From a virus: DNA of 64,000 bases. The DNA lies in UHGV virus genome UHGV-0113858. One strand, given 5' to 3'. The position numbers were made by a program, and so were the translations under genes. Positions 4,769 to 63,274 of this stretch are shown one piece after another. The notes under the pieces are model-generated. The model made no database searches and had not been told where the DNA came from. It worked only from the letters and a program-made list of their open reading frames with translations. Numbering within the stretch: the first letter of the stretch is position 1; each line of letters starts with the position of its first letter.

Positions 4769-5157
4769 AGTAGCGGTCTCGCCTCTGGTTTCAAAGATAC
4801 CTGAAGATAAGGTTGTCGGCCATCCTTATAATATTTACAGATATAAGTTCCTGTTGCAAGAACAGTACCGTTCACTATCCCCATATTTCTCATTACTTGG
4901 AAACTATCTTCTTGTTCTTCCATCTCATCTAACATACCTGTCTGCGTCGTCAGAGTGCCGGGAATGAATGCCTTTCTGAATTCTGTATCGCATTTCATCC
5001 CAGCAATCCGATGAATGGCCTCTGTTTTTTCTTCAGCCGACAACCAGCTTGAAGAAACATCGTCGAATTTGTTCATATTGGGGTTGGTTTTCATAAAGTA
5101 GATAAGTCCACCCGAGACAACGATGGCTGTGATAACACCTGCTATTACTGCTTTCAT
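4759..5157 (-). CDS. moron: N-terminally membrane-anchored protein of unknown function
   Basis: Opposite-strand gene inside the late block; real start MKAVIAGVITAIVVSGGLIYF at 5157 with SD gaggag; own promoter at 5184-5211. Confidence 0.5.
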   Translation of the reverse strand: MKAVIAGVITAIVVSGGLIYFMKTNPNMNKFDDVSSSWLSAEEKTEAIHRIAGMKCDTEFRKAFIPGTLTTQTGMLDEMEEQEDSFQVMRNMGIVNGTVLATGTYICKYYKDGRQPYLQVSLKPEARPLLKK

Positions 5158-5183
5158 GGGATTCTCCTCAATAATTTTCTTTG

Positions 5184-5211
5184 AGAATAGCATCCTGCAA
5201 CATGATGTCAA
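5184..5211 (-). promoter_or_regulatory. sigma70 promoter for the moron (TTGACA-N16-TATTCT)
   Basis: Reverse complement of 5206-5211 is TTGACA, of 5184-5189 is TATTCT; 16-nt spacer. Confidence 0.45.
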
Positions 5212-6773: not shown

Positions 6774-7315
6774 TGGCAGACTTCGTAACAAACTCCGATG
6801 ATATTTTTGACGCCCTCGCAGTTACGCTCGCCAGATTTTGCAAAGAAGTCACGGGGAGAAAAATAATTGACGGGGACGGAGACGTCATATCCAAGGTAGA
6901 GGGTGAGTTCATCATGCTCAACCAAGTTACCGCTGACCAGATGGACTGGGCTGCGAACGAGTGGGTAGATGAGAGAGGTAACGCTGTAATAACTCACAAC
7001 TACGAGGTGGTTTACAACCTGACAGCATTTCGAGGAAAAGCATCAAATGCATTAACTCGGATTCTACAGGCCTTGAGCCTCCCCTACATCTGCGACAAGT
7101 ATTTTCCAACCAATTCCCCATTTGCATATTCTTCTTCCTCAACGGTATCGCGCCAGAGAGTTCCGTTGAACATGCAAACCTTCGAAAACCGTGCAACTGT
7201 ACTTATCACTTTTAACGTCTGCATTGGAGTGACAGATACAGGAGCTTTCGAGGATATCGAGAGGGTGAATGCAGAGATGGTTTATTACTATCCGGCTCCA
7301 GATGATCAACAATAA
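6770..7315 (+). CDS. tail completion / neck protein (hypothetical)
   Basis: ATGA overlap, SD gaaggagg. Confidence 0.35.
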   Translation: MMADFVTNSDDIFDALAVTLARFCKEVTGRKIIDGDGDVISKVEGEFIMLNQVTADQMDWAANEWVDERGNAVITHNYEVVYNLTAFRGKASNALTRILQALSLPYICDKYFPTNSPFAYSSSSTVSRQRVPLNMQTFENRATVLITFNVCIGVTDTGAFEDIERVNAEMVYYYPAPDDQQ

Positions 7316-7347
7316 CTTTATGAAAGAAATAGAAGAAGAGGAAATCA

Positions 7348-8844
7348 ATGGCTTATAATGATAAGGTTGTTGACGTAACGGTTGTTCTCGGGACACAACC
7401 AATCGACACCGTAGGGTTTGAAACCCCTCTATTTATCGCAATTCACAACGTTTTCCCAGAACGAGTACGTACATATACAGATCTGGATGAACTCGCTGCT
7501 GATGGTTTCGCTGTAGGTTCCCCTGCGTATACTTTTGCGACAAAAGCTTTTGCTGGGACTTTCCGCCCCCAAGCGCTTATGATCGGAAGACAAGCATGGG
7601 GATCAACAGTTATCGATTTCACAGGGCAGACTAACGTAGATCCTAATAACCCGGTAAGTTTCAACGTTGCAGCAGGTGCGTATACTAAAAGCATCGTTAT
7701 TCCTGTTACTACCGCATCTACACCAGAGAGTATTGCAACAGCCCTGGCATCTGCAATCAACTCCGATACCACGCTTAATGTAATTGTCGGTGCAGTAGCT
7801 ACAACTGGTGTTGTAACAATCACTCCGAAAGGTGATGGCTCTCTGCTAGCTACTAACAATGATGAGGTGGTTACAACCGAATCTGACCAAGGCATCATGG
7901 CAACATCTTCTGATGTTATCGGCGAGCCGTTTAGCATCGGTGTTGACTCCGGTGATTGCACACTGACTAACAACTCAACTGAGACTGTAAGCGGTGTTCT
8001 ACCACAGGTAGAAACTGCAAACAGCAACTGGTACTTCCTGAGCACAGAACAACATGTTTCTTCTGCAATTCTGGGAGCTGCCGCTTATGCTGCTGCTAAC
8101 TATAAGCTTCACGTCTATTCAACATCCGATCCGCTGTCAAAAGTTGTCGACGGAGATTCTATTGCTAATCAACTGAAAGCACTTCAGTATGATACTAGCA
8201 TTGGTATGTATGACCCGCTTGCTGATAGTGCATTCCCTGAAGGTGGTATCATCGGTGCAATGGCATCTAATGACCCATCCTATGGTGACTCAATCCACCT
8301 GAAGACAATGCCGGGTGTTATTGCTCCGACCCTGAGTTCTTCTGAGCGTCCAGCTATCTGGGGCCAGAACCTGAACTTCTATCGTATGATTAATGGTGTC
8401 GGCGCATTCTGGGAAGGTAAGTGTGCCTCCGGTCAGTATGTCGATGTTGTCCGTTTTGGTCACTGGCTGAAGTTCAGAAGTGAAGAAAGTATCTTCGCCT
8501 ACATGTCTCGCCGTTCTAATCTTGGCCTGTCCATGAAAATGAGCGATGATGATCTGCCGAACCTGAAGTCAGTCCTGATGAACAGTCCTCTGAATGTCGG
8601 TATTACCAACGGCTCTATTCTGACCGGGTATGATTCCGTCAACAAAGTGTTCTACGATCCGGTTGTAACAATCCCGCTTCGTGCAAACATACCATCTAAT
8701 GATCTGGCATCTCGTACTCTTAACAACGTTAAGGTAGAGCTAGTCTACAACAGCGCCCTGCATTTCGTCAAGATCCGCATCTCTGTTCTGCTAGACAAAA
8801 CCGGGTCTACTTCTTCCAGCGGACAAGTAACAGCAGGAGTGTAA
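7348..8844 (+). CDS. tail sheath protein (alternatively a large major tail protein)
   Basis: 498 aa; C-terminal PAIWGQNLNFYRMINGVGAFWEGK resembles the sheath motif GFRFWGNRT; followed by a 157-aa tube-like gene, G/GT chaperone and tape measure in the order seen in contractile-tail phages. Confidence 0.45.
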   Translation: MAYNDKVVDVTVVLGTQPIDTVGFETPLFIAIHNVFPERVRTYTDLDELAADGFAVGSPAYTFATKAFAGTFRPQALMIGRQAWGSTVIDFTGQTNVDPNNPVSFNVAAGAYTKSIVIPVTTASTPESIATALASAINSDTTLNVIVGAVATTGVVTITPKGDGSLLATNNDEVVTTESDQGIMATSSDVIGEPFSIGVDSGDCTLTNNSTETVSGVLPQVETANSNWYFLSTEQHVSSAILGAAAYAAANYKLHVYSTSDPLSKVVDGDSIANQLKALQYDTSIGMYDPLADSAFPEGGIIGAMASNDPSYGDSIHLKTMPGVIAPTLSSSERPAIWGQNLNFYRMINGVGAFWEGKCASGQYVDVVRFGHWLKFRSEESIFAYMSRRSNLGLSMKMSDDDLPNLKSVLMNSPLNVGITNGSILTGYDSVNKVFYDPVVTIPLRANIPSNDLASRTLNNVKVELVYNSALHFVKIRISVLLDKTGSTSSSGQVTAGV

Positions 8845-33812: not shown

Positions 33813-34024
33813 TCCACCCCTGAACTTATGCCGAAAGATACTATGCCGAGAACTAATCCCAAAAACCCACCAAGTATTACAGAGGTTTGGGCGTACTCGC
33901 CAAAGCCAGGTGTTCCGAATACTTCCCCCGCACTGATACCAACATAGTATCCGAGAGAGATAGATATTGCAAGCACAAAGAAGAACACCACTACACTGAT
34001 GGTTGTGGGAATGATTAAATCACG
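33809..34024 (-). CDS. small 2-TM membrane protein
   Basis: Start MRDLIIPTTISVVVFFFVLAISISLGYYVG; the listed ORF 33809..34066 has an earlier start, but an internal Met is preferred. Confidence 0.35.
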   Translation of the reverse strand, partial: RDLIIPTTISVVVFFFVLAISISLGYYVGISAGEVFGTPGFGEYAQTSVILGGFLGLVLGIVSFGISSGVE

Positions 34025-34742
34025 CATGTGTAGTTTCCTTTTCTGTTTTACGCCATTTGTAAGCACCGTACACAGAGTTTAACAGGAAAGTTACCCACAT
34101 TGCAAGGACTGCCCATCCTTGTATTTCATGATGCATTGCTGTCTGAATCCACAGAGCCACAGCAACCACGTTAACAATAATCCAGACATACCATTGTTCT
34201 GCATAACGAACCATCATCAGGTAGGTTGCCAGAACCGACAGGATTGCTGTAGCAGAATCGAGACCCGGCATATTCCCTTTCAGCAGGCTAACGAACTCGG
34301 CGTATAATCCGATCGTCACCAATGTCCCGATACCAACAATCCAGCGCTGTTTTGTGGTCAGATACTTCTTGATGACATCCGCACGTTCACCATCCGCAGA
34401 GACGGTTAACTTACGCGCCCAGATTATCCCACCAATGACCTGCATGGGTGTGAACAACAGGGTGTACATGATCGTTTCTCCGTAGAGTTTGTACGTGAAC
34501 GACACATAAGCATACAACACCGTTGCCACAAAACCCCAGTAATAACTGGAGAGCTTACCTTTTGCCACCAGGATAGCCCCGATGATCCCGGTAACAGAAG
34601 AGATGAACTCTACTAACCCACCGCCCATAGTCAAGGAGACAATGGCGATCGATGCCGAGCAGATGAGGAGCCAAAGATATTCAAGTTTTGACCAGCCATA
34701 AAAGTCAGTCCATGCTGTCTTAATGTACAGATTTGTATTCAT
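34020..34742 (-). CDS. pnuC: nicotinamide riboside / NMN transporter PnuC
   Basis: 240 aa, 7-8 TM, PnuC-like length and pattern (LVAKGKLSSYYWGFVATVLYAYVSF...); sits in the same gene block as a NadR-like enzyme. Confidence 0.6.
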   Translation of the reverse strand: MNTNLYIKTAWTDFYGWSKLEYLWLLICSASIAIVSLTMGGGLVEFISSVTGIIGAILVAKGKLSSYYWGFVATVLYAYVSFTYKLYGETIMYTLLFTPMQVIGGIIWARKLTVSADGERADVIKKYLTTKQRWIVGIGTLVTIGLYAEFVSLLKGNMPGLDSATAILSVLATYLMMVRYAEQWYVWIIVNVVAVALWIQTAMHHEIQGWAVLAMWVTFLLNSVYGAYKWRKTEKETTHA

Positions 34743-36729: not shown

Positions 36730-37818
36730 TTAGGAAACCCCATTCTGTTCTCCTTTGATATTCAGCAATTTACGGACAGCTTCGGCGGCTTTCTGAGTAC
36801 GTTCTTTGTAATCACTTCCTGAGATAACTACCACCTTGCTTGTATCGTAAGATGTCCTGATCATTGTGTCAAGCAAAGAATGTGTTTCTTTACGCTTTTC
36901 TGGCGTATCCTGCAAGCGAAGAGGATCAGCAACCCACGGAACCTCTGGTGTGAGGAACAGGAATAGGTCGTAGAAGTTGTAGCTCTCTTCACGGCTCAGT
37001 GTGCGGAACAGAAGATCGGAGTAGTCGATCTTTTCTGCACAAATGCCAGAGAAGTGAGTGATCAGGTTTGTGGTGTCAGAGAACATAACCCCACAACCAC
37101 CCCAGCCAGCTAACTCCATTTCCTTCAGGCGATGCTCCATTGCGATACGAAGATAGTCTCCACGAGACATTGCTAACTCACTGGAGTGGTATTCACGCTC
37201 ACAGATAAGCCTCCCGATCTCAGGAATCCAACCAGCACCGAAGGTATGCGCCAGATGTTTTGTCAGGGTTGTCTTGCCCGTACTCTCAACACCAATGATG
37301 GCAACCTTCTTCATGAAGCGCTTACGTGCAGGCCACGCTAGGTTGTAGAAGTTGTTGTACGGATCATTACGGATCATCGTGGCTGAGATAGGAACAGCTT
37401 TACGTTCTGCGTCGATAACTACATGCTTCGCTTCAGGGAAGAACTCACTGAAGTAAGACTCATACTCCGGCTCAGAAGAGAAAGCAAAATCGTACTTAAC
37501 GAACGGTTGCTTTTCACGGATCAGTTTTGCATAGGCAGCACTGCCTTCAGGGTATCCTGGGATATTCGACTCATCAACGTAGTCTACCTTCACGTTGTCA
37601 AGTCCCTCGTCGGCAATGACATCCAGCAGGTCACGATAACGATCAGCAAGTCCCAGCTTAGGACGAATCCACTCTGGTTGTGCGTCAACGAATTTCTGGT
37701 CATAGGACAGGAACAGATACAGAGCACTAACCTGAGAAGCCGCCTGGCGAATGAATTCAATATGTCCGTTGGTCAGCGGTGCAAACTTTCCGAAGATAAG
37801 GCCGCGAGTAATCGTCAT
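36730..37818 (-). CDS. nadR: NadR-like bifunctional NMN adenylyltransferase / ribosylnicotinamide kinase (no HTH domain)
   Basis: N-terminal GKFAPLTNGH (nucleotidyltransferase HxGH-type motif), ATMIRNDP; C-terminal P-loop GVESTGKTTL kinase domain; 362 aa. Confidence 0.65.
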   Translation of the reverse strand: MTITRGLIFGKFAPLTNGHIEFIRQAASQVSALYLFLSYDQKFVDAQPEWIRPKLGLADRYRDLLDVIADEGLDNVKVDYVDESNIPGYPEGSAAYAKLIREKQPFVKYDFAFSSEPEYESYFSEFFPEAKHVVIDAERKAVPISATMIRNDPYNNFYNLAWPARKRFMKKVAIIGVESTGKTTLTKHLAHTFGAGWIPEIGRLICEREYHSSELAMSRGDYLRIAMEHRLKEMELAGWGGCGVMFSDTTNLITHFSGICAEKIDYSDLLFRTLSREESYNFYDLFLFLTPEVPWVADPLRLQDTPEKRKETHSLLDTMIRTSYDTSKVVVISGSDYKERTQKAAEAVRKLLNIKGEQNGVS

Positions 37819-59534: not shown

Positions 59535-60626
59535 TTAGCCCTCCTCACTCAGACGAGTCATGTACCATGCACGAGCTTTGTTGCTGATAAACTTGCCAAC
59601 ATCTTTCATGGTCATGGAGCTGGCTTCCAGAACATCACCCTCTTCCTTGTTGATGTCTCGGTTAATCCATCCAATGAATTCACCAATCTTAGTCTGGTCA
59701 AGACCGACTTCGCTAACACCCTGCTCAAGACGTGCTTCCGTCACAGCGTACTCAACGAACTCACGCATACTTGCGAGGCGTTCTGGGTCGATTGCCGCCA
59801 GGGTCTTAACTTTGGATACAGAATGTTTATCACCCTTAACTTTAAACCACAGGCCAGAGATTTTAGAAAGCTCAGGATCTTTTGGAGACCAGACAATGCC
59901 TTCACCGATACCTTCTACGCCAAAGAACTTACCTGCCGGGCATTTGTTTTCCACTTCACGAGTCAGTTCTGCCAGGTCATTCTGGACAAGTTCCGGCTCA
60001 TTGAATGGGATATTAGCCATCCAGTAACCGAAGTCAAGGATACTGTAGATACGAGCATCCGGCAATCCAATTCCAAACTGGAACGTTGGCGGTAGCCAGT
60101 TGAGGGTATCCGTTGCCTCATCCCGGCCCACAGCCACACGGAAGATAGCAAAGAATGGCTCTACCTCAGTGATGGCAACACCTTTCTGAATGCCACGACC
60201 AGCCCATTCACCAGCAATTTCAACCGGGAACTGGAACTCAACGTCATTGACTTCACACAGATATTTAACCTGAGAAAGCAACTCTGCGGTGTCTTTTCGA
60301 GACATGAAGGCCGCGAAGCCATTGTTATCGTCACCTACAGTCACGACACGCTCTTTGGACTGGAAGACAACTTCATCCTCAGAGTGGAATACCACACTGC
60401 CATTAGTGCCGTGAAGCTTAACCGTACCGATGTACGGGATCAGGTACGCTTCCGGTGGCAACACCTTCCGCTTGATATTACCCTCTTCATCAATACCGTC
60501 GAACGTCAGTTTATCATGCATGGTGCGGATAACCTGACGGAACTGTGCGGTGCTTGGGTATTTAATTGGTTTTGTCAATTTTATTCTCCTCAAATAATTT
60601 GCTAATGTGTCCGCCAGAAAGTTCAA
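59535..60626 (-). CDS. ATP-dependent RNA ligase (Rnl2-like nucleotidyltransferase)
   Basis: Motif I VKLHGTNGS (T4 Rnl2 KIHGTN), motif IV GEGIVW, motif V FKVKG; 363 aa. Confidence 0.55.
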   Translation of the reverse strand: MNFLADTLANYLRRIKLTKPIKYPSTAQFRQVIRTMHDKLTFDGIDEEGNIKRKVLPPEAYLIPYIGTVKLHGTNGSVVFHSEDEVVFQSKERVVTVGDDNNGFAAFMSRKDTAELLSQVKYLCEVNDVEFQFPVEIAGEWAGRGIQKGVAITEVEPFFAIFRVAVGRDEATDTLNWLPPTFQFGIGLPDARIYSILDFGYWMANIPFNEPELVQNDLAELTREVENKCPAGKFFGVEGIGEGIVWSPKDPELSKISGLWFKVKGDKHSVSKVKTLAAIDPERLASMREFVEYAVTEARLEQGVSEVGLDQTKIGEFIGWINRDINKEEGDVLEASSMTMKDVGKFISNKARAWYMTRLSEEG

Positions 60627-60984: not shown

Positions 60985-61596
60985 TCAATTTAACCACGAT
61001 AATCCAGTCCCCCCTGTGGATAATCCACATTTTGTCATTTCCCGAATGGCAGCGATCTGTTCTGATGTCAGAGGGCCGTCGTCTGGAGGGTAGTAACCAG
61101 GGATTTCCCATTCTTTCAAGACATAAACTGTCACATCACAATCAAAGAAGATTGATTTGATCATTGCCTCGATGACGTTCCAGTCACCGCCTGCAAGGCC
61201 AGCACCGATTTTAGGGAACCCGATTCGATAGGTGTCCATAGGGCCGTCTGTATAGCTCTGTAAGAGCTTTTTCATCTCAACCATCGAATCGTACAGGGCA
61301 TTGTAATCAAGGTCCCTGAGGCCCTGTTTACGGCGATTATAGCCGTATTGCGAATACAGATTAAATCCTGCGAGAGATCCATCATTCAAAAAGGCCATTG
61401 TACAGGTTCCCAGCTTGGTCTTATCGCCCTTCTCAGTTTTCAGATCGGCAGCGTACATCTTAGGGAATGCTTCTTTGATCAACGGGGCGATTCCGCTCCC
61501 CATTGTGCAATAGCAATTACAGCCATGTCCAAAGACATTAATCTCACCACTTTTTGCAGCATCGATCAGGTCACCAACTTTGTATTTGAAGCTCAT
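60985..61596 (-). CDS. macro-domain protein (ADP-ribose binding/processing)
   Basis: NVFGHGCNCYCTMGSGIAPLI and RIGFPKIGAGLAGGDW match the macrodomain core (…GGGV…/…FPxISTGxxGxP…); 203 aa. Confidence 0.55.
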   Translation of the reverse strand: MSFKYKVGDLIDAAKSGEINVFGHGCNCYCTMGSGIAPLIKEAFPKMYAADLKTEKGDKTKLGTCTMAFLNDGSLAGFNLYSQYGYNRRKQGLRDLDYNALYDSMVEMKKLLQSYTDGPMDTYRIGFPKIGAGLAGGDWNVIEAMIKSIFFDCDVTVYVLKEWEIPGYYPPDDGPLTSEQIAAIREMTKCGLSTGGTGLSWLN

Positions 61597-61938: not shown

Positions 61939-62247
61939 TTATTTCCTCTTCTTCTTTTTCTTCTTTAGTTTGTTGTGACCACGCCCCTTAAAGATCTTAA
62001 ACTTAGCATAGTCAACATCATCATTATCAATCATAATGATATTGTTTGCAGGACGGGCAGATATCGCGTCCAAAGAAATGGTTTCTGCATCCCACAAAGA
62101 CGCTAGTGTTGAGTACCCTACAGGGTTACCGCAGCCAAGAACAACAATCTTTCTATCGCCAACCATTTCTTTGAGGGCTTCACGGACCTTTTCCAGTTCT
62201 TCTTTCTGGTCTTCTGTTAACTCTGGCCCAATGTTCTGAAGATTCAT
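61939..62247 (-). CDS. hypothetical protein with poly-Lys tail
   Basis: 102 aa ending KLKKKKKKRK. Confidence 0.35.
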   Translation of the reverse strand: MNLQNIGPELTEDQKEELEKVREALKEMVGDRKIVVLGCGNPVGYSTLASLWDAETISLDAISARPANNIIMIDNDDVDYAKFKIFKGRGHNKLKKKKKKRK

Positions 62248-62583: not shown

Positions 62584-62876
62584 AATTCCCCCTTCATGAG
62601 GACAATCCGGTTACGATGTGCATAATCACGGAAGGCCCCAAGATTATCTTTATCGTGTTTAGCAATCTTCTCAAGAACTTCCATTGCAGTTATGCCAGAT
62701 GTCCAGCCTGACTGACAGAAGCCATTGTCTGTACGAAGATAACACTCTTTTCCAGCCTGTCCATATCGTGCCTGGTTTTCAATATCACTGATGTCAAGGT
62801 CACTGATCCTAACAAGGCGCTCTTCCCCAGTAAAATCGGGAATGTAGATATAACCAAAACCTGGTGAACGTCTCAT
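62577..62876 (-). CDS. hypothetical protein
   Basis: 99-aa ORF. Confidence 0.35.
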   Translation of the reverse strand: MRRSPGFGYIYIPDFTGEERLVRISDLDISDIENQARYGQAGKECYLRTDNGFCQSGWTSGITAMEVLEKIAKHDKDNLGAFRDYAHRNRIVLMKGELW

Positions 62877-63021
62877 ACTTTAACCTCCACGTAATAAGGT
62901 AATCGCTTGATCAAGTCCTCAGGGGCACCGTTTTCTGTCCAAGTGAGGCCTTGGTCACCAGACACATAGCCTTTACCGTTAACAAACTTGCGCCAGATGT
63001 TACGAAACTGGTTTTTGTAGA

Positions 63022-63213
63022 TCATTCGATCACACTCCAGCCTTCATCCTGCCATGATTCACCACGATACCAGCCTGCCATAGGGCAACCGTCTTCTGCG
63101 TAGATACGCCCATCAACCATTTCGAACCATTCATCAGAAGTGAAATATTGGTTACGGATACGTTTACCTTCACGCATAGCCTGCTGTGCTTCTTTCCAGT
63201 TTAATTTCGGCAT
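63022..63213 (-). CDS. DUF2829 / Tad2-like small protein (candidate Thoeris-signal sponge)
   Basis: Start MPKLNWKEAQQAMREGKRIRNQYF (DUF2829-type [FW]xEAxxA[LM][KR]xGK[KR][VI]) and C-terminal ...GWYRGESWQDEGWSVIE (compare ...DWEIVE); SD gagga; 63 aa. Confidence 0.45.
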   Translation of the reverse strand: MPKLNWKEAQQAMREGKRIRNQYFTSDEWFEMVDGRIYAEDGCPMAGWYRGESWQDEGWSVIE

Positions 63214-63274
63214 GAGTATATCCTCGTTTTGTTTGATGCATAAAGCATAACAGCCCCCGGAGGGGCTGTCAATA

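What the first reader, a model, noticed from the sequence alone, without database searches (positions are those of the whole stretch)
63022..63213. DUF2829 / Tad2-like small protein
A 63-aa ORF has an N-terminal WKEAQQAMREGKRIRNQYF and a C-terminal DEGWSVIE, matching the DUF2829 pattern of Tad2 proteins that sequester Thoeris gcADPR signals. Its presence alongside NAD+ salvage genes suggests layered anti-Thoeris measures: signal sponge plus NAD+ replenishment.
Basis: inference. Interest (0 to 1): 0.7.

Follow-up and report, generated by a model that had tools for sequence, protein, structure and literature searches.

The report
Minimal Tad2-fold phage protein, altered pocket
A real 63-residue early gene of a Klebsiella phage has the fold of the Tad2 'sponge' proteins that phages use to soak up bacterial alarm molecules, but it lacks the residues Tad2 uses to hold the Thoeris signal, so what it binds is still unknown.

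Summary
The ORF is real: 63022..63213 on the minus strand, 63 aa, with a Shine-Dalgarno site. It is conserved in 472 phage genome records. The window is a Klebsiella Mydovirus (Vequintavirinae).

- Pfam PF11195 (Tad2-like/DUF2829) does not hit the protein itself.
- 72 of 150 family members hit PF11195 weakly.
- HHalign of the family against Tad2 relatives gives 95.5% probability.

The protein is a minimal Tad2 core without the variable insertion.

The functional claim, a gcADPR sponge acting against Thoeris, is not supported. Residues G24-W25-N26-G27, W73, S76 and D79 are 99-100% invariant in 114 Tad2 relatives and are kept in ModTad2, HgmTad2 and SptTad2. Here they are replaced by Y-F-T and no S-x-T-D. 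The short family has its own conserved set: H/N21, F24, E28, E40, G42.

The NAD+ salvage genes (PnuC and a NadR-like protein) exist but lie 25-29 kb away.

My best reading is an early-expressed, oligomeric small-ligand binder of the Tad2 superfamily with a different, unknown ligand. This is a new variant of a known kind.

The parts
63022..63213 (-). 63-aa ORF encoding a minimal Tad2/DUF2829-fold protein (phrog_3474). Predicted elements: alpha1 at 6-14, strands at 19-21, 30-33 and 36-39, a short helix at 53-56, and a strand at 59-61.
63214..63274 (-). Upstream intergenic region with three features: a GAGGA ribosome-binding site, a sigma-70-like promoter match (TTGACA-17-TATGCT with an extended TG, 63272..63244), and an overlapping G+C-rich hairpin (63271..63248) that may terminate the upstream ATPase gene.
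   Evidence: Consensus scan: a 10/12 match, with 7 promoter-like sites found in the region against 4.4 expected. This is suggestive only. Sequence.
62873..63025 (-). Downstream 50-aa ORF whose ATG overlaps the stop of the Tad2-like gene (ATGA). It is probably co-translated. Function unknown (phrog_2381).
61939..62247 (-). 102-aa ORF (phrog_27594), four genes downstream in the same string. Its C-terminal tail, DYAKFKIFKGRGHNKLKKKKKKRK, is the same tail that is fused behind the Tad2-like domain in longer family members (phrog_22208 form, e.g. phAPEC8_00241).
   Evidence: blastp of neighbour ORFs against the long family members: P0031 65% identity over 26 aa, E 3e-9; P0026, P0014, P0015 and P0032 also match. 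PHROG assignments. phAPEC8 annotation.

Best explanation
The ORF is a genuine phage gene. It is probably transcribed early from a host-type promoter, as the first gene of a string of small, overlapping accessory ORFs.

Its product is the bare core of the Tad2/DUF2829 fold: an N-terminal helix, a small antiparallel sheet, a short helix and a C-terminal strand. It lacks the variable insertion that in known Tad2 proteins carries helix alpha2 and, in HgmTad2 and SptTad2, the cyclic-dinucleotide site.

It represents a large uncharacterised sister family of canonical Tad2, mostly 59-70 aa. The family occurs in Vequintavirinae, Stephanstirmvirinae, Ounavirinae, T4-like, T5-like and Chaseviridae phages.

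I infer that, like every characterised member of the fold, it assembles into a homo-oligomer and binds a small molecule at a protomer interface. That interface would be formed by the beta1-beta2 loop (H/N21-x-Y23-F24-T25...E28) and the loop after the hairpin (E40-D41-G42). The likely effect is to blunt a host immune or stress signal early in infection.

This pocket is chemically different from the G-W-N-G / W...S-x-T-D pocket that all tested Tad2 proteins use for ADPR-derived Thoeris signals. The ligand is therefore probably not gcADPR and cannot be named from sequence.

Shown: the gene, the fold, the homology, the replaced pocket residues and the family-specific conservation. Inferred: oligomerisation, ligand binding, anti-defence role and early timing.
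For: - Gene reality and spread.
- Sequence homology: HHalign 95.5%, E 1.5e-8. PF11195 is touched by 72 of 150 family members. P0076, P0084 and P0127 exceed the cut-off, and P0061 aligns end to end.
- Insertion-less core: the global HHalign places a gap of about 24 residues opposite the Tad2 insertion. Li et al. describe that insertion as variable and separate from the gcADPR-binding domain.
- Re-tooled pocket: residue frequencies are. The most conserved non-core positions of the short family (H/N21, F24 91%, E28 97%, E40 93%, G42 90%) lie on the loops that line the Tad2 pocket.
- Oligomer-type function: natural tandem two-domain members exist (P0064, P0076, P0084, P0142).
- Early or accessory context: a promoter-like site lies upstream. 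The homologue in a T5-like phage sits in the pre-early terminal repeat beside A1 and A2. In T4-like, Ounavirinae, Jedunavirus and Loessnervirus phages the gene sits in small-ORF, non-structural clusters.
- Ligand plasticity of the fold: Tad2 homologues bind 3'cADPR, His-ADPR, N7-cADPR, cCMP/cUMP and cyclic dinucleotides.
Against: - No experiment exists for any member of this short family.
- No multimer model could be made, so oligomerisation and an interface pocket are untested.
- The helix alpha2/strand beta2 element that forms the V-shaped Tad2 dimer is missing. The tetramer architecture may therefore not be kept.
- The conserved family residues are largely acidic (E28, E40, D41). Known sponge pockets are positively charged.
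- The residue mapping rests on a profile-profile alignment and on predicted secondary structure, not on a residue-level structural superposition.
- The promoter match is only a consensus hit.
- No known anti-defence gene is a consistent neighbour.
Confidence: 0.5

Rival explanations
1. One reading: a bona fide Tad2 that sequesters 1''-3'/1''-2' gcADPR (or His-ADPR or N7-cADPR) and so blocks Thoeris, working together with the phage's NAD+ salvage genes.
For: - The fold is Tad2 and homology is supported.
- An aromatic residue is kept at the W25 position (F24, 91% of the family).
- In this protein and its close relatives, W48 aligns with W73.
- E52 lies next to the D79-equivalent position and is nearly invariant among close orthologues.
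- The phage does encode PnuC and a NadR-like enzyme, and a Macro-domain protein lies 1.4 kb downstream.
Against: - N26, G27, S76, T78 and D79 are 90-100% invariant in 114 Tad2 relatives. They are retained even in ModTad2, which switched ligand to His-ADPR (P0192). All are replaced here.
- The equivalent double and triple mutants of HgmTad2 lose gcADPR binding.
- W48 is present in only 28% of the wider family.
- The query fails Pfam PF11195.
- The NAD+ genes are 25-29 kb away.
Confidence: 0.17
2. The Tad2 fold is reused for a function that is not signal sequestration. Examples would be a small protein-binding inhibitor or regulator of a host or phage protein, or a module that works with the basic KGRGHNKL-tailed partner to which it is fused in other phages.
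For: - The canonical pocket is lost and the surface is acidic (net charge about -4, pI 4.7).
- Five longer family members fuse the domain to a domain ending in a strongly basic tail. That tail is encoded here by a separate gene four ORFs downstream.
- Other family members are fused to unrelated domains such as peptide deformylase and the SEC-C motif.
- The missing alpha2 dimerisation element argues against a Tad2-like tetramer.
Against: - Every experimentally characterised member of the fold is a small-molecule sponge. The reported anti-Cas9 activity of AcrIIA7 could not be reproduced.
- The family-specific invariant residues sit on the loops that form the ligand pocket in Tad2.
- Tandem-domain members fit pockets formed between protomers.
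Confidence: 0.3
3. The ORF is a chance open frame or a decaying remnant with no function.
For: It is very short and has no direct Pfam hit.
Against: - It is intact in 472 phage records across several virus families, down to 33% identity.
- It has a fold-consistent conservation pattern and a confident structure prediction.
- It has an RBS and translational coupling to the next ORF.
Confidence: 0.01

Closest known systems
Tad2 (Thoeris anti-defence 2; Pfam PF11195 Tad2-like/DUF2829). Solved structures: SPO1 Tad2 8SME/8SMF/8SMG/8WJE, ModTad2 9EIB, SptTad2 8WJD
   Same: - Same fold and a homologous sequence: N-terminal helix with the x-EA-x-x-A-[LM]-x-x-G-K-x-V motif, strand beta1, a beta-hairpin, a short helix, and a C-terminal [DE]-[DG]-W-x-[IV] strand.
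- Small, phage-encoded, stand-alone, and located in accessory or early gene clusters.
   Different: - 63 aa against 86-104 aa: the beta2-beta3 insertion with helix alpha2 (V-dimer interface) is absent.
- The G-W-N-G loop is replaced by Y-F-T.
- There is no S-x-T-D motif before the last helix.
- It falls below the Pfam gathering score.
- It has its own invariant set (H/N21, F24, E28, E40, G42).
- No biochemical data exist.
HgmTad2 = AcrIIA7 (8KBI-8KBM, 8WJC)
   Different: - HgmTad2 carries a 41-residue insertion (residues 32-72) that forms the cGG/cGAMP pocket. The protein here has no insertion, so that second site cannot exist.
- The W21/N22 and S90/T92/D93 pocket residues are not retained.
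- The anti-Cas9 activity reported for AcrIIA7 was not reproduced by Li et al..
Other phage immune-signal sponges (Tad1, Acb2, Acb4, Sequestin/PF21825, TadIV-1)
   Same: They share the general logic I infer for this protein: proteins under 100 aa, homo-oligomers, pockets at protomer interfaces, early expression, and occasional fusion to other small modules.
   Different: Their folds are unrelated. None of these families was hit by sequence or structure searches with this protein.

Membership tests
Pfam PF11195 (Tad2-like / DUF2829 domain) | Scores at or above the curated gathering cut-off (25 bits) against the PF11195 HMM | tested here: not met
   The query has no hit even at E<=10. The nearest representatives are sub-threshold: P0011 18.6 bits, P0027 17.9, P0016 15.7. 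A few distant family members pass: P0084 31.6, P0076 30.1, P0127 25.9. The positive control, SPO1L3 Tad2, scores 86.3 bits.
Tad2/DUF2829 superfamily (fold-level homology) | Fold of an N-terminal helix, a small antiparallel sheet, a short helix and a C-terminal strand, superposable on solved Tad2 structures | tested here: met
Tad2/DUF2829 superfamily (fold-level homology) | Statistically supported profile-profile sequence similarity to Tad2 relatives | tested here: met
   HHalign of a 152-sequence family alignment against 114 Tad2 relatives gives probability 95.5% and E 1.5e-8. 72 of 150 members hit PF11195 at E<=0.1.
Tad2 gcADPR/ADPR-signal sponge (functional family) | G-W-N-G loop after strand beta1 (SPO1 W25/N26; HgmTad2 W21/N22/G23), which contacts the diphosphate and riboses | tested here: not met
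   The loop is 99-100% invariant in 114 Tad2 relatives and is kept in ModTad2, HgmTad2 and SptTad2. Here it aligns to Y23-F24-T25. Family frequencies are Y 63%, F 91%, T 55%.
Tad2 gcADPR/ADPR-signal sponge (functional family) | W...S-x-T-D motif before the last helix (SPO1 W73, S76, T78, D79; HgmTad2 W87, S90, T92, D93) | tested here: not met
   W48 aligns with W73 in this protein but is present in only 28% of the family. G51, E52 and S53 stand in place of S76, T78 and D79. The mapping comes from HHalign and secondary-structure register, not from a residue-level superposition.
Tad2 gcADPR/ADPR-signal sponge (functional family) | Homotetramer of two V-shaped dimers (alpha2/beta2 interface plus alpha1 interlock) with pockets between protomers | not testable with these tools
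The alpha2-bearing insertion is absent. The alpha1 helix is the best-conserved segment shared by the two families.
Tad2 gcADPR/ADPR-signal sponge (functional family) | Binds gcADPR (or His-ADPR or N7-cADPR) and rescues phage from Thoeris | not testable with these tools
   This needs biochemistry and infection assays. No member of the short family appears in the text held for the supplements of two large sponge screens.
AcrIIA7-type anti-CRISPR | Inhibits Cas9 | not tested
   AcrIIA7 is HgmTad2. Li et al. could not reproduce its anti-Cas9 activity. The hosts here are Enterobacteriaceae.
   PnuC lies at 34020..34742 (PF04973, 1.1e-38). A NadR-like protein lies at 36730..37818 (CTP_transf_like plus AAA_28). 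Both are in the window but 25-29 kb from the ORF and in a different gene block. No Nampt-type gene appears in the annotation of the BIS47 regions judged to correspond to the window.

The most novel reading that the evidence does not exclude
The short family is a distinct class of minimal sponge derived from the Tad2 fold. Its re-tooled pocket (H/N-x-Y-F-T...E...E-D-G) would capture a signal that no known sponge has been shown to bind in Enterobacteriaceae, possibly a still unidentified immune messenger. If so, the protein could serve as bait to fish that molecule out of infected cells, as ModTad2 was used to discover His-ADPR. The recurrent fusion to a KGRGHNKL-tailed domain would then mark a second, linked counter-defence module.
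Probability: 0.2. Interest if true: 0.8.

Novelty: new variant of a known kind. Interest (0 to 1): 0.45.

Why it matters
Tad2-type sponges have twice served as tools to identify or confirm bacterial immune messengers (gcADPR and His-ADPR). They are also markers for anti-defence loci in therapeutic phages.

This protein stands for a large family: 342 clusters at 50% identity and 472 sequenced phages, including Klebsiella, E. coli and Salmonella phages of therapeutic interest. The family has the Tad2 fold but not its ligand-binding residues.

Automatic pipelines either miss it (no Pfam hit) or, where they catch a relative, label it 'Thoeris anti-defense 2-like'. That label probably over-states what is known. 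Finding its ligand would either extend the known range of the Tad2 fold or show that the fold has a non-sponge use.

If the protein turns out to bind gcADPR despite the substitutions, that would redefine which residues are essential for Tad2 function.

Tried and rejected
- **Direct Pfam scan of the protein:** no hit at E<=10.
- **phmmer against PDB sequences:** only a marginal SptTad2 hit, E 0.54.
- **Narrow 11-sequence profile against PDB:** lost the Tad2 hit and returned chance matches to LIM/homeobox and mannosidase.
- **Broad 150-sequence profile against PDB:** Tad2 chains came top, but only at E 0.6-1.1 and only over the N-terminal helix.
- **PADLOC:** nothing meaningful.
- **Giant repeat proteins in the hmmsearch list** (P0025, P0056, P0065, P0066, P0081, P0128): rejected as spurious. 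They match only profile positions 22-45, through an SDDRFEVVDGxL-type repeat.
- **88-aa reading from TTG 63288:** rejected in favour of the 63-aa ATG start.
- **The search for related loci with alignments A2 and A3:** failed, because no stretch was conserved enough. Contexts were instead sampled from ten annotated phage records, nine of them informative (A145 carries no annotation).
- **afdb50 fold library:** unavailable.
- **Sequence-motif searches in the supplements of two sponge-screen preprints:** no family member found.
- **TadIV-1 (T4):** checked and set aside, because it is described as structurally distinct from all known sponges.
- **Second copy or canonical Tad2 in the window:** searched in six frames and not found.

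Full report
**The observation**

The window carries an ORF at 63022..63213 on the minus strand. It runs from ATG to TGA and encodes 63 aa: MPKLNWKEAQQAMREGKRIRNQYFTSDEWFEMVDGRIYAEDGCPMAGWYRGESWQDEGWSVIE. A GAGGA ribosome-binding site lies 7 nt upstream. The stop codon overlaps the ATG of the next small ORF (ATGA).

Upstream lies a 61-bp intergenic region (63214..63274). It holds a G+C-rich hairpin and an overlapping sigma-70-like match, TTGACA-17-TATGCT with an extended TG. That match comes from a consensus scan only.

The window is about 97.8% identical to Klebsiella phages of the genus Mydovirus (Vequintavirinae). The orthologue in the reference phage BIS47 is BIS47_226, annotated as a 63-aa hypothetical protein.

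The gene is real. tblastn finds it intact in 472 phage records, from 100% down to 33% identity. These include Klebsiella, Escherichia, Salmonella, Citrobacter, Erwinia and Proteus phages. A full-library hmmsearch with a profile of close homologues finds 342 cluster representatives at E<=1e-3. Most are stand-alone proteins of 59-70 aa.

**Is it DUF2829/Tad2-like?**

The direct test fails. Pfam gives no hit for the protein at E<=10. PHROGs place it in phrog_3474, of unknown function. The only PDB sequence hit is SptTad2 at E 0.54.

Three more sensitive and independent lines agree on homology.

1. Transitive Pfam hits. Of 150 diverse family members scanned singly, 72 hit PF11195 'Tad2-like' at E<=0.1, with a best E of 2.4e-7. 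No other family recurs. P0084, P0076 and P0127 exceed the 25-bit cut-off. P0061 aligns over residues 1-64 to model positions 1-72 of 73. The closest relatives of the query score 15-19 bits. The control, SPO1L3 Tad2, scores 86 bits.
2. Profile-profile comparison. I aligned 152 domain sequences of the family and compared them by HHalign with an alignment of SPO1L3 Tad2 plus 113 homologues carrying PF11195. The result is probability 95.5% and E 1.5e-8.
3. Structure. An AlphaFold2 model made without templates has pLDDT 85.3 and pTM 0.70.
   - In Foldseek against the PDB, the nine best hits are all Tad2 chains (TM 0.61-0.71). Everything else has TM below 0.37.
   - Among predicted viral structures, the neighbours include 60-63-aa proteins that UniProt already names 'DUF2829 domain-containing' or 'Thoeris anti-defense 2-like'.

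**What kind of Tad2-fold protein?**

The global HHalign places a gap of about 24 residues opposite the Tad2 segment between strands beta2 and beta3. In SPO1 Tad2 this segment carries helix alpha2. Together with beta2 it forms the V-shaped dimer. In HgmTad2 and SptTad2 it is a longer insertion that makes the separate cyclic-dinucleotide pocket. Li et al. describe it as variable and distinct from the gcADPR-binding domain.

The protein here is thus the bare core of the fold. The predicted elements are a helix at 6-14, strands at 19-21, 30-33 and 36-39, a helix at 53-56, and a strand at 59-61.

**Are the ligand-binding residues kept?**

In SPO1 Tad2, gcADPR is held by W25, N26, W73 and D79, with T78, I63 and T65. 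Waters are held by D67, H71 and S76. In HgmTad2 the equivalents are W21/N22/G23 and W87/S90/T92/D93. The W21A/N22A and S90A/T92A/D93A mutants lose binding.

In my alignment of 114 Tad2 relatives, G24, W25, N26, W73, S76 and D79 are 100% invariant, G27 is 99% and T78 is 90%. The same signature is present in ModTad2 (P0192...REGWNGKG...TWTPSVSD...). ModTad2 binds a different ligand, His-ADPR. SptTad2 also has the signature.

In the protein here the aligned residues are as follows:

| SPO1 Tad2 | This protein |
|---|---|
| G24 / W25 / N26 | Y23 / F24 / T25 |
| W73 | W48 |
| S76 | G51 |
| T78 | E52 |
| D79 | S53 |

Across 152 members of the short family, F24 is 91% conserved. T25 is only 55% and W48 only 28%, and there is no S-x-T-D motif. 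Instead the family has its own near-invariant set: A9 and G16 (99%), E28 (97%), E40 (93%), F24 (91%), G42 (90%), W59 (88%), and H/N21 (78% and 18%).

A9, M13 and G16 lie on helix alpha1 and its turn. That helix is the segment best shared with Tad2, and in Tad2 it is part of the tetramer interface. W59 matches the core W85. The remaining conserved residues lie on the beta1-beta2 loop and on the loop after the hairpin. By the published description, these are the loops that wall the Tad2 pocket.

My reading is that the pocket position is probably conserved but its chemistry has been replaced. This departure is larger than the one separating Tad2 proteins with different known ligands. An ADPR-derived Thoeris signal is therefore an unlikely ligand, though it is not excluded.

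The caveat is that the mapping comes from a profile alignment and secondary-structure register. The tools gave no residue-level superposition and no multimer model.

**Context**

The gene heads a minus-strand string of small overlapping ORFs of unknown function: 50, 99, 110, 102, 58 and 57 aa (PHROG families of unknown or dubious annotation). These are followed by a Macro-domain protein (60985..61596) and an RNA ligase (59535..60626).

BIS47 has an extra 363-bp gene just upstream of the orthologue that this window lacks. That fits a variable accessory region.

In other phage lineages the homologue also sits among small non-structural ORFs:
- In a T5-like Epseptimavirus it lies inside the left terminal repeat, that is, the pre-early region, beside A1 and A2.
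- In T4-like phages it lies between the nrdD/G/H genes and gp55.
- In a Jedunavirus it heads a helicase-nuclease-primase operon.
- It also occurs in Ounavirinae and Loessnervirus small-ORF clusters.

No known anti-defence gene is a constant neighbour. The window holds only one copy and no canonical Tad2.

**A fusion link**

Five longer family members (P0014, P0015, P0026, P0031, P0032; the phrog_22208 form, e.g. phAPEC8_00241) carry the Tad2-like domain followed by an extension. That extension ends in ...KG[KR]GHN[KR]L[KQ]K[RK]KKK.

The same tail (DYAKFKIFKGRGHNKLKKKKKKRK) ends the separate 102-aa ORF at 61939..62247, four genes downstream of the finding. It occurs in no other ORF of the window. 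This suggests a functional link between the two genes. What the tail does is unknown.

Tandem two-domain members (P0064, P0076, P0084, P0142) also exist. They fit a protein that works as an oligomer.

**The NAD+ salvage claim**

The window does encode a PnuC transporter (34020..34742; PF04973, 1.1e-38). It also encodes a NadR-like protein with cytidylyltransferase-like and AAA_28 domains (36730..37818).

These genes are 25-29 kb from the ORF, beyond the polymerase, rII and other replication genes. From my own knowledge, they form a PnuC/NadR nicotinamide-riboside route and not the published NARP1 or NARP2 pathways. Nothing links them to the ORF beyond being in the same genome.

**Mechanism and alternatives**

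All characterised proteins of this fold are homo-oligomeric sponges for nucleotide-derived immune signals. Their known ligands are 3'cADPR/2'cADPR, His-ADPR, N7-cADPR, cCMP/cUMP and cyclic dinucleotides.

I therefore favour an early-made, oligomeric small-ligand binder with a ligand other than gcADPR (confidence about 0.5). Within that, the fold assignment is about 0.9.

| Reading | Confidence |
|---|---|
| Oligomeric small-ligand binder, ligand not gcADPR | about 0.5 |
| Non-sponge use of the fold | about 0.3 |
| Chance ORF | about 0.01 |

The non-sponge reading rests on three points: the acidic conserved residues, the loss of the alpha2 dimer element, and the fusions to unrelated modules.

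**Novelty**

The fold family is known, and some short relatives are already auto-annotated as DUF2829. What appears not to be described is that this large enterobacterial-phage family lacks the defining Tad2 ligand residues and has its own conserved set. It is also absent from the text held for the supplements of two large sponge screens, and no paper in the library mentions Tad2 together with Vequintavirinae.

I rate it a new variant of a known kind, of moderate interest. It is a good candidate for ligand fishing, but nothing in it is surprising yet.

Noticed in passing
window 61939..62247 (-): A 102-aa ORF (phrog_27594, unknown function) ends in the strongly basic tail DYAKFKIFKGRGHNKLKKKKKKRK. 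The same tail is fused behind the Tad2-like domain in five longer family members (P0014, P0015, P0026, P0031, P0032; phrog_22208; e.g. phAPEC8_00241). No other ORF in the window has it. The function of the tail is unknown.
   Followed up: partly
window 60985..61596 (-): A Macro-domain protein (PF01661, E 5.6e-5; phrog_335 'phosphatase') lies 1.4 kb downstream in the same gene string. Macro domains bind or hydrolyse ADP-ribose derivatives, and the type II Thoeris effector senses His-ADPR through a Macro domain. This gene may be a better candidate than the 63-aa ORF for an ADPR-related counter-defence role.
   Followed up: no
window 34020..34742 (-) and 36730..37818 (-): A PnuC nicotinamide-riboside/NMN transporter (PF04973, 1.1e-38) and a NadR-like bifunctional protein (cytidylyltransferase-like plus AAA_28 kinase-like domain). 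Together they make a phage-borne NR-to-NAD+ salvage pair. No Nampt-type gene was seen in the annotation of the BIS47 regions judged to correspond to the window.
   Followed up: partly
L005 (T5-like phage cott162, MF431740.1) 4989..5186: The homologue of the 63-aa protein (P162_0012) lies inside the left terminal repeat, the pre-early first-step-transfer region, near A1 and A2. It is therefore present twice per genome. This points to expression at the very start of infection.
   Followed up: partly
window 63214..63274: A G+C-rich hairpin (TGACAGCCCCTCCGGGGGCTGTTA) overlaps a near-consensus sigma-70-type promoter (TTGACA-17-TATGCT, TG-extended). The stem occupies the promoter spacer. It could be a terminator for the upstream ATPase gene combined with a promoter for the small-ORF string.
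   Followed up: no
L001 (BIS47, NC_048656.1) 7216..7578 versus window about 63214..63274: BIS47 carries an extra 363-bp hypothetical gene (BIS47_225) between the ATPase gene and the orthologue of the finding. The window lacks it. This is an indel hotspot typical of accessory regions.
   Followed up: no
proteins P0025, P0056, P0065, P0066, P0081, P0128: Giant repeat proteins (677-3047 aa) match profile positions 22-45 of the family 7-15 times each, through an SDDRFEVVDGxLxLxxG repeat that resembles TSDEWFEMVDGRIYAEDG. I judged this a local motif coincidence and not homology.
   Followed up: partly
proteins P0064, P0076, P0084, P0142: These are natural tandem duplications of the Tad2-like short domain within one polypeptide. 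They could reveal the protomer-protomer interface if modelled.
   Followed up: no
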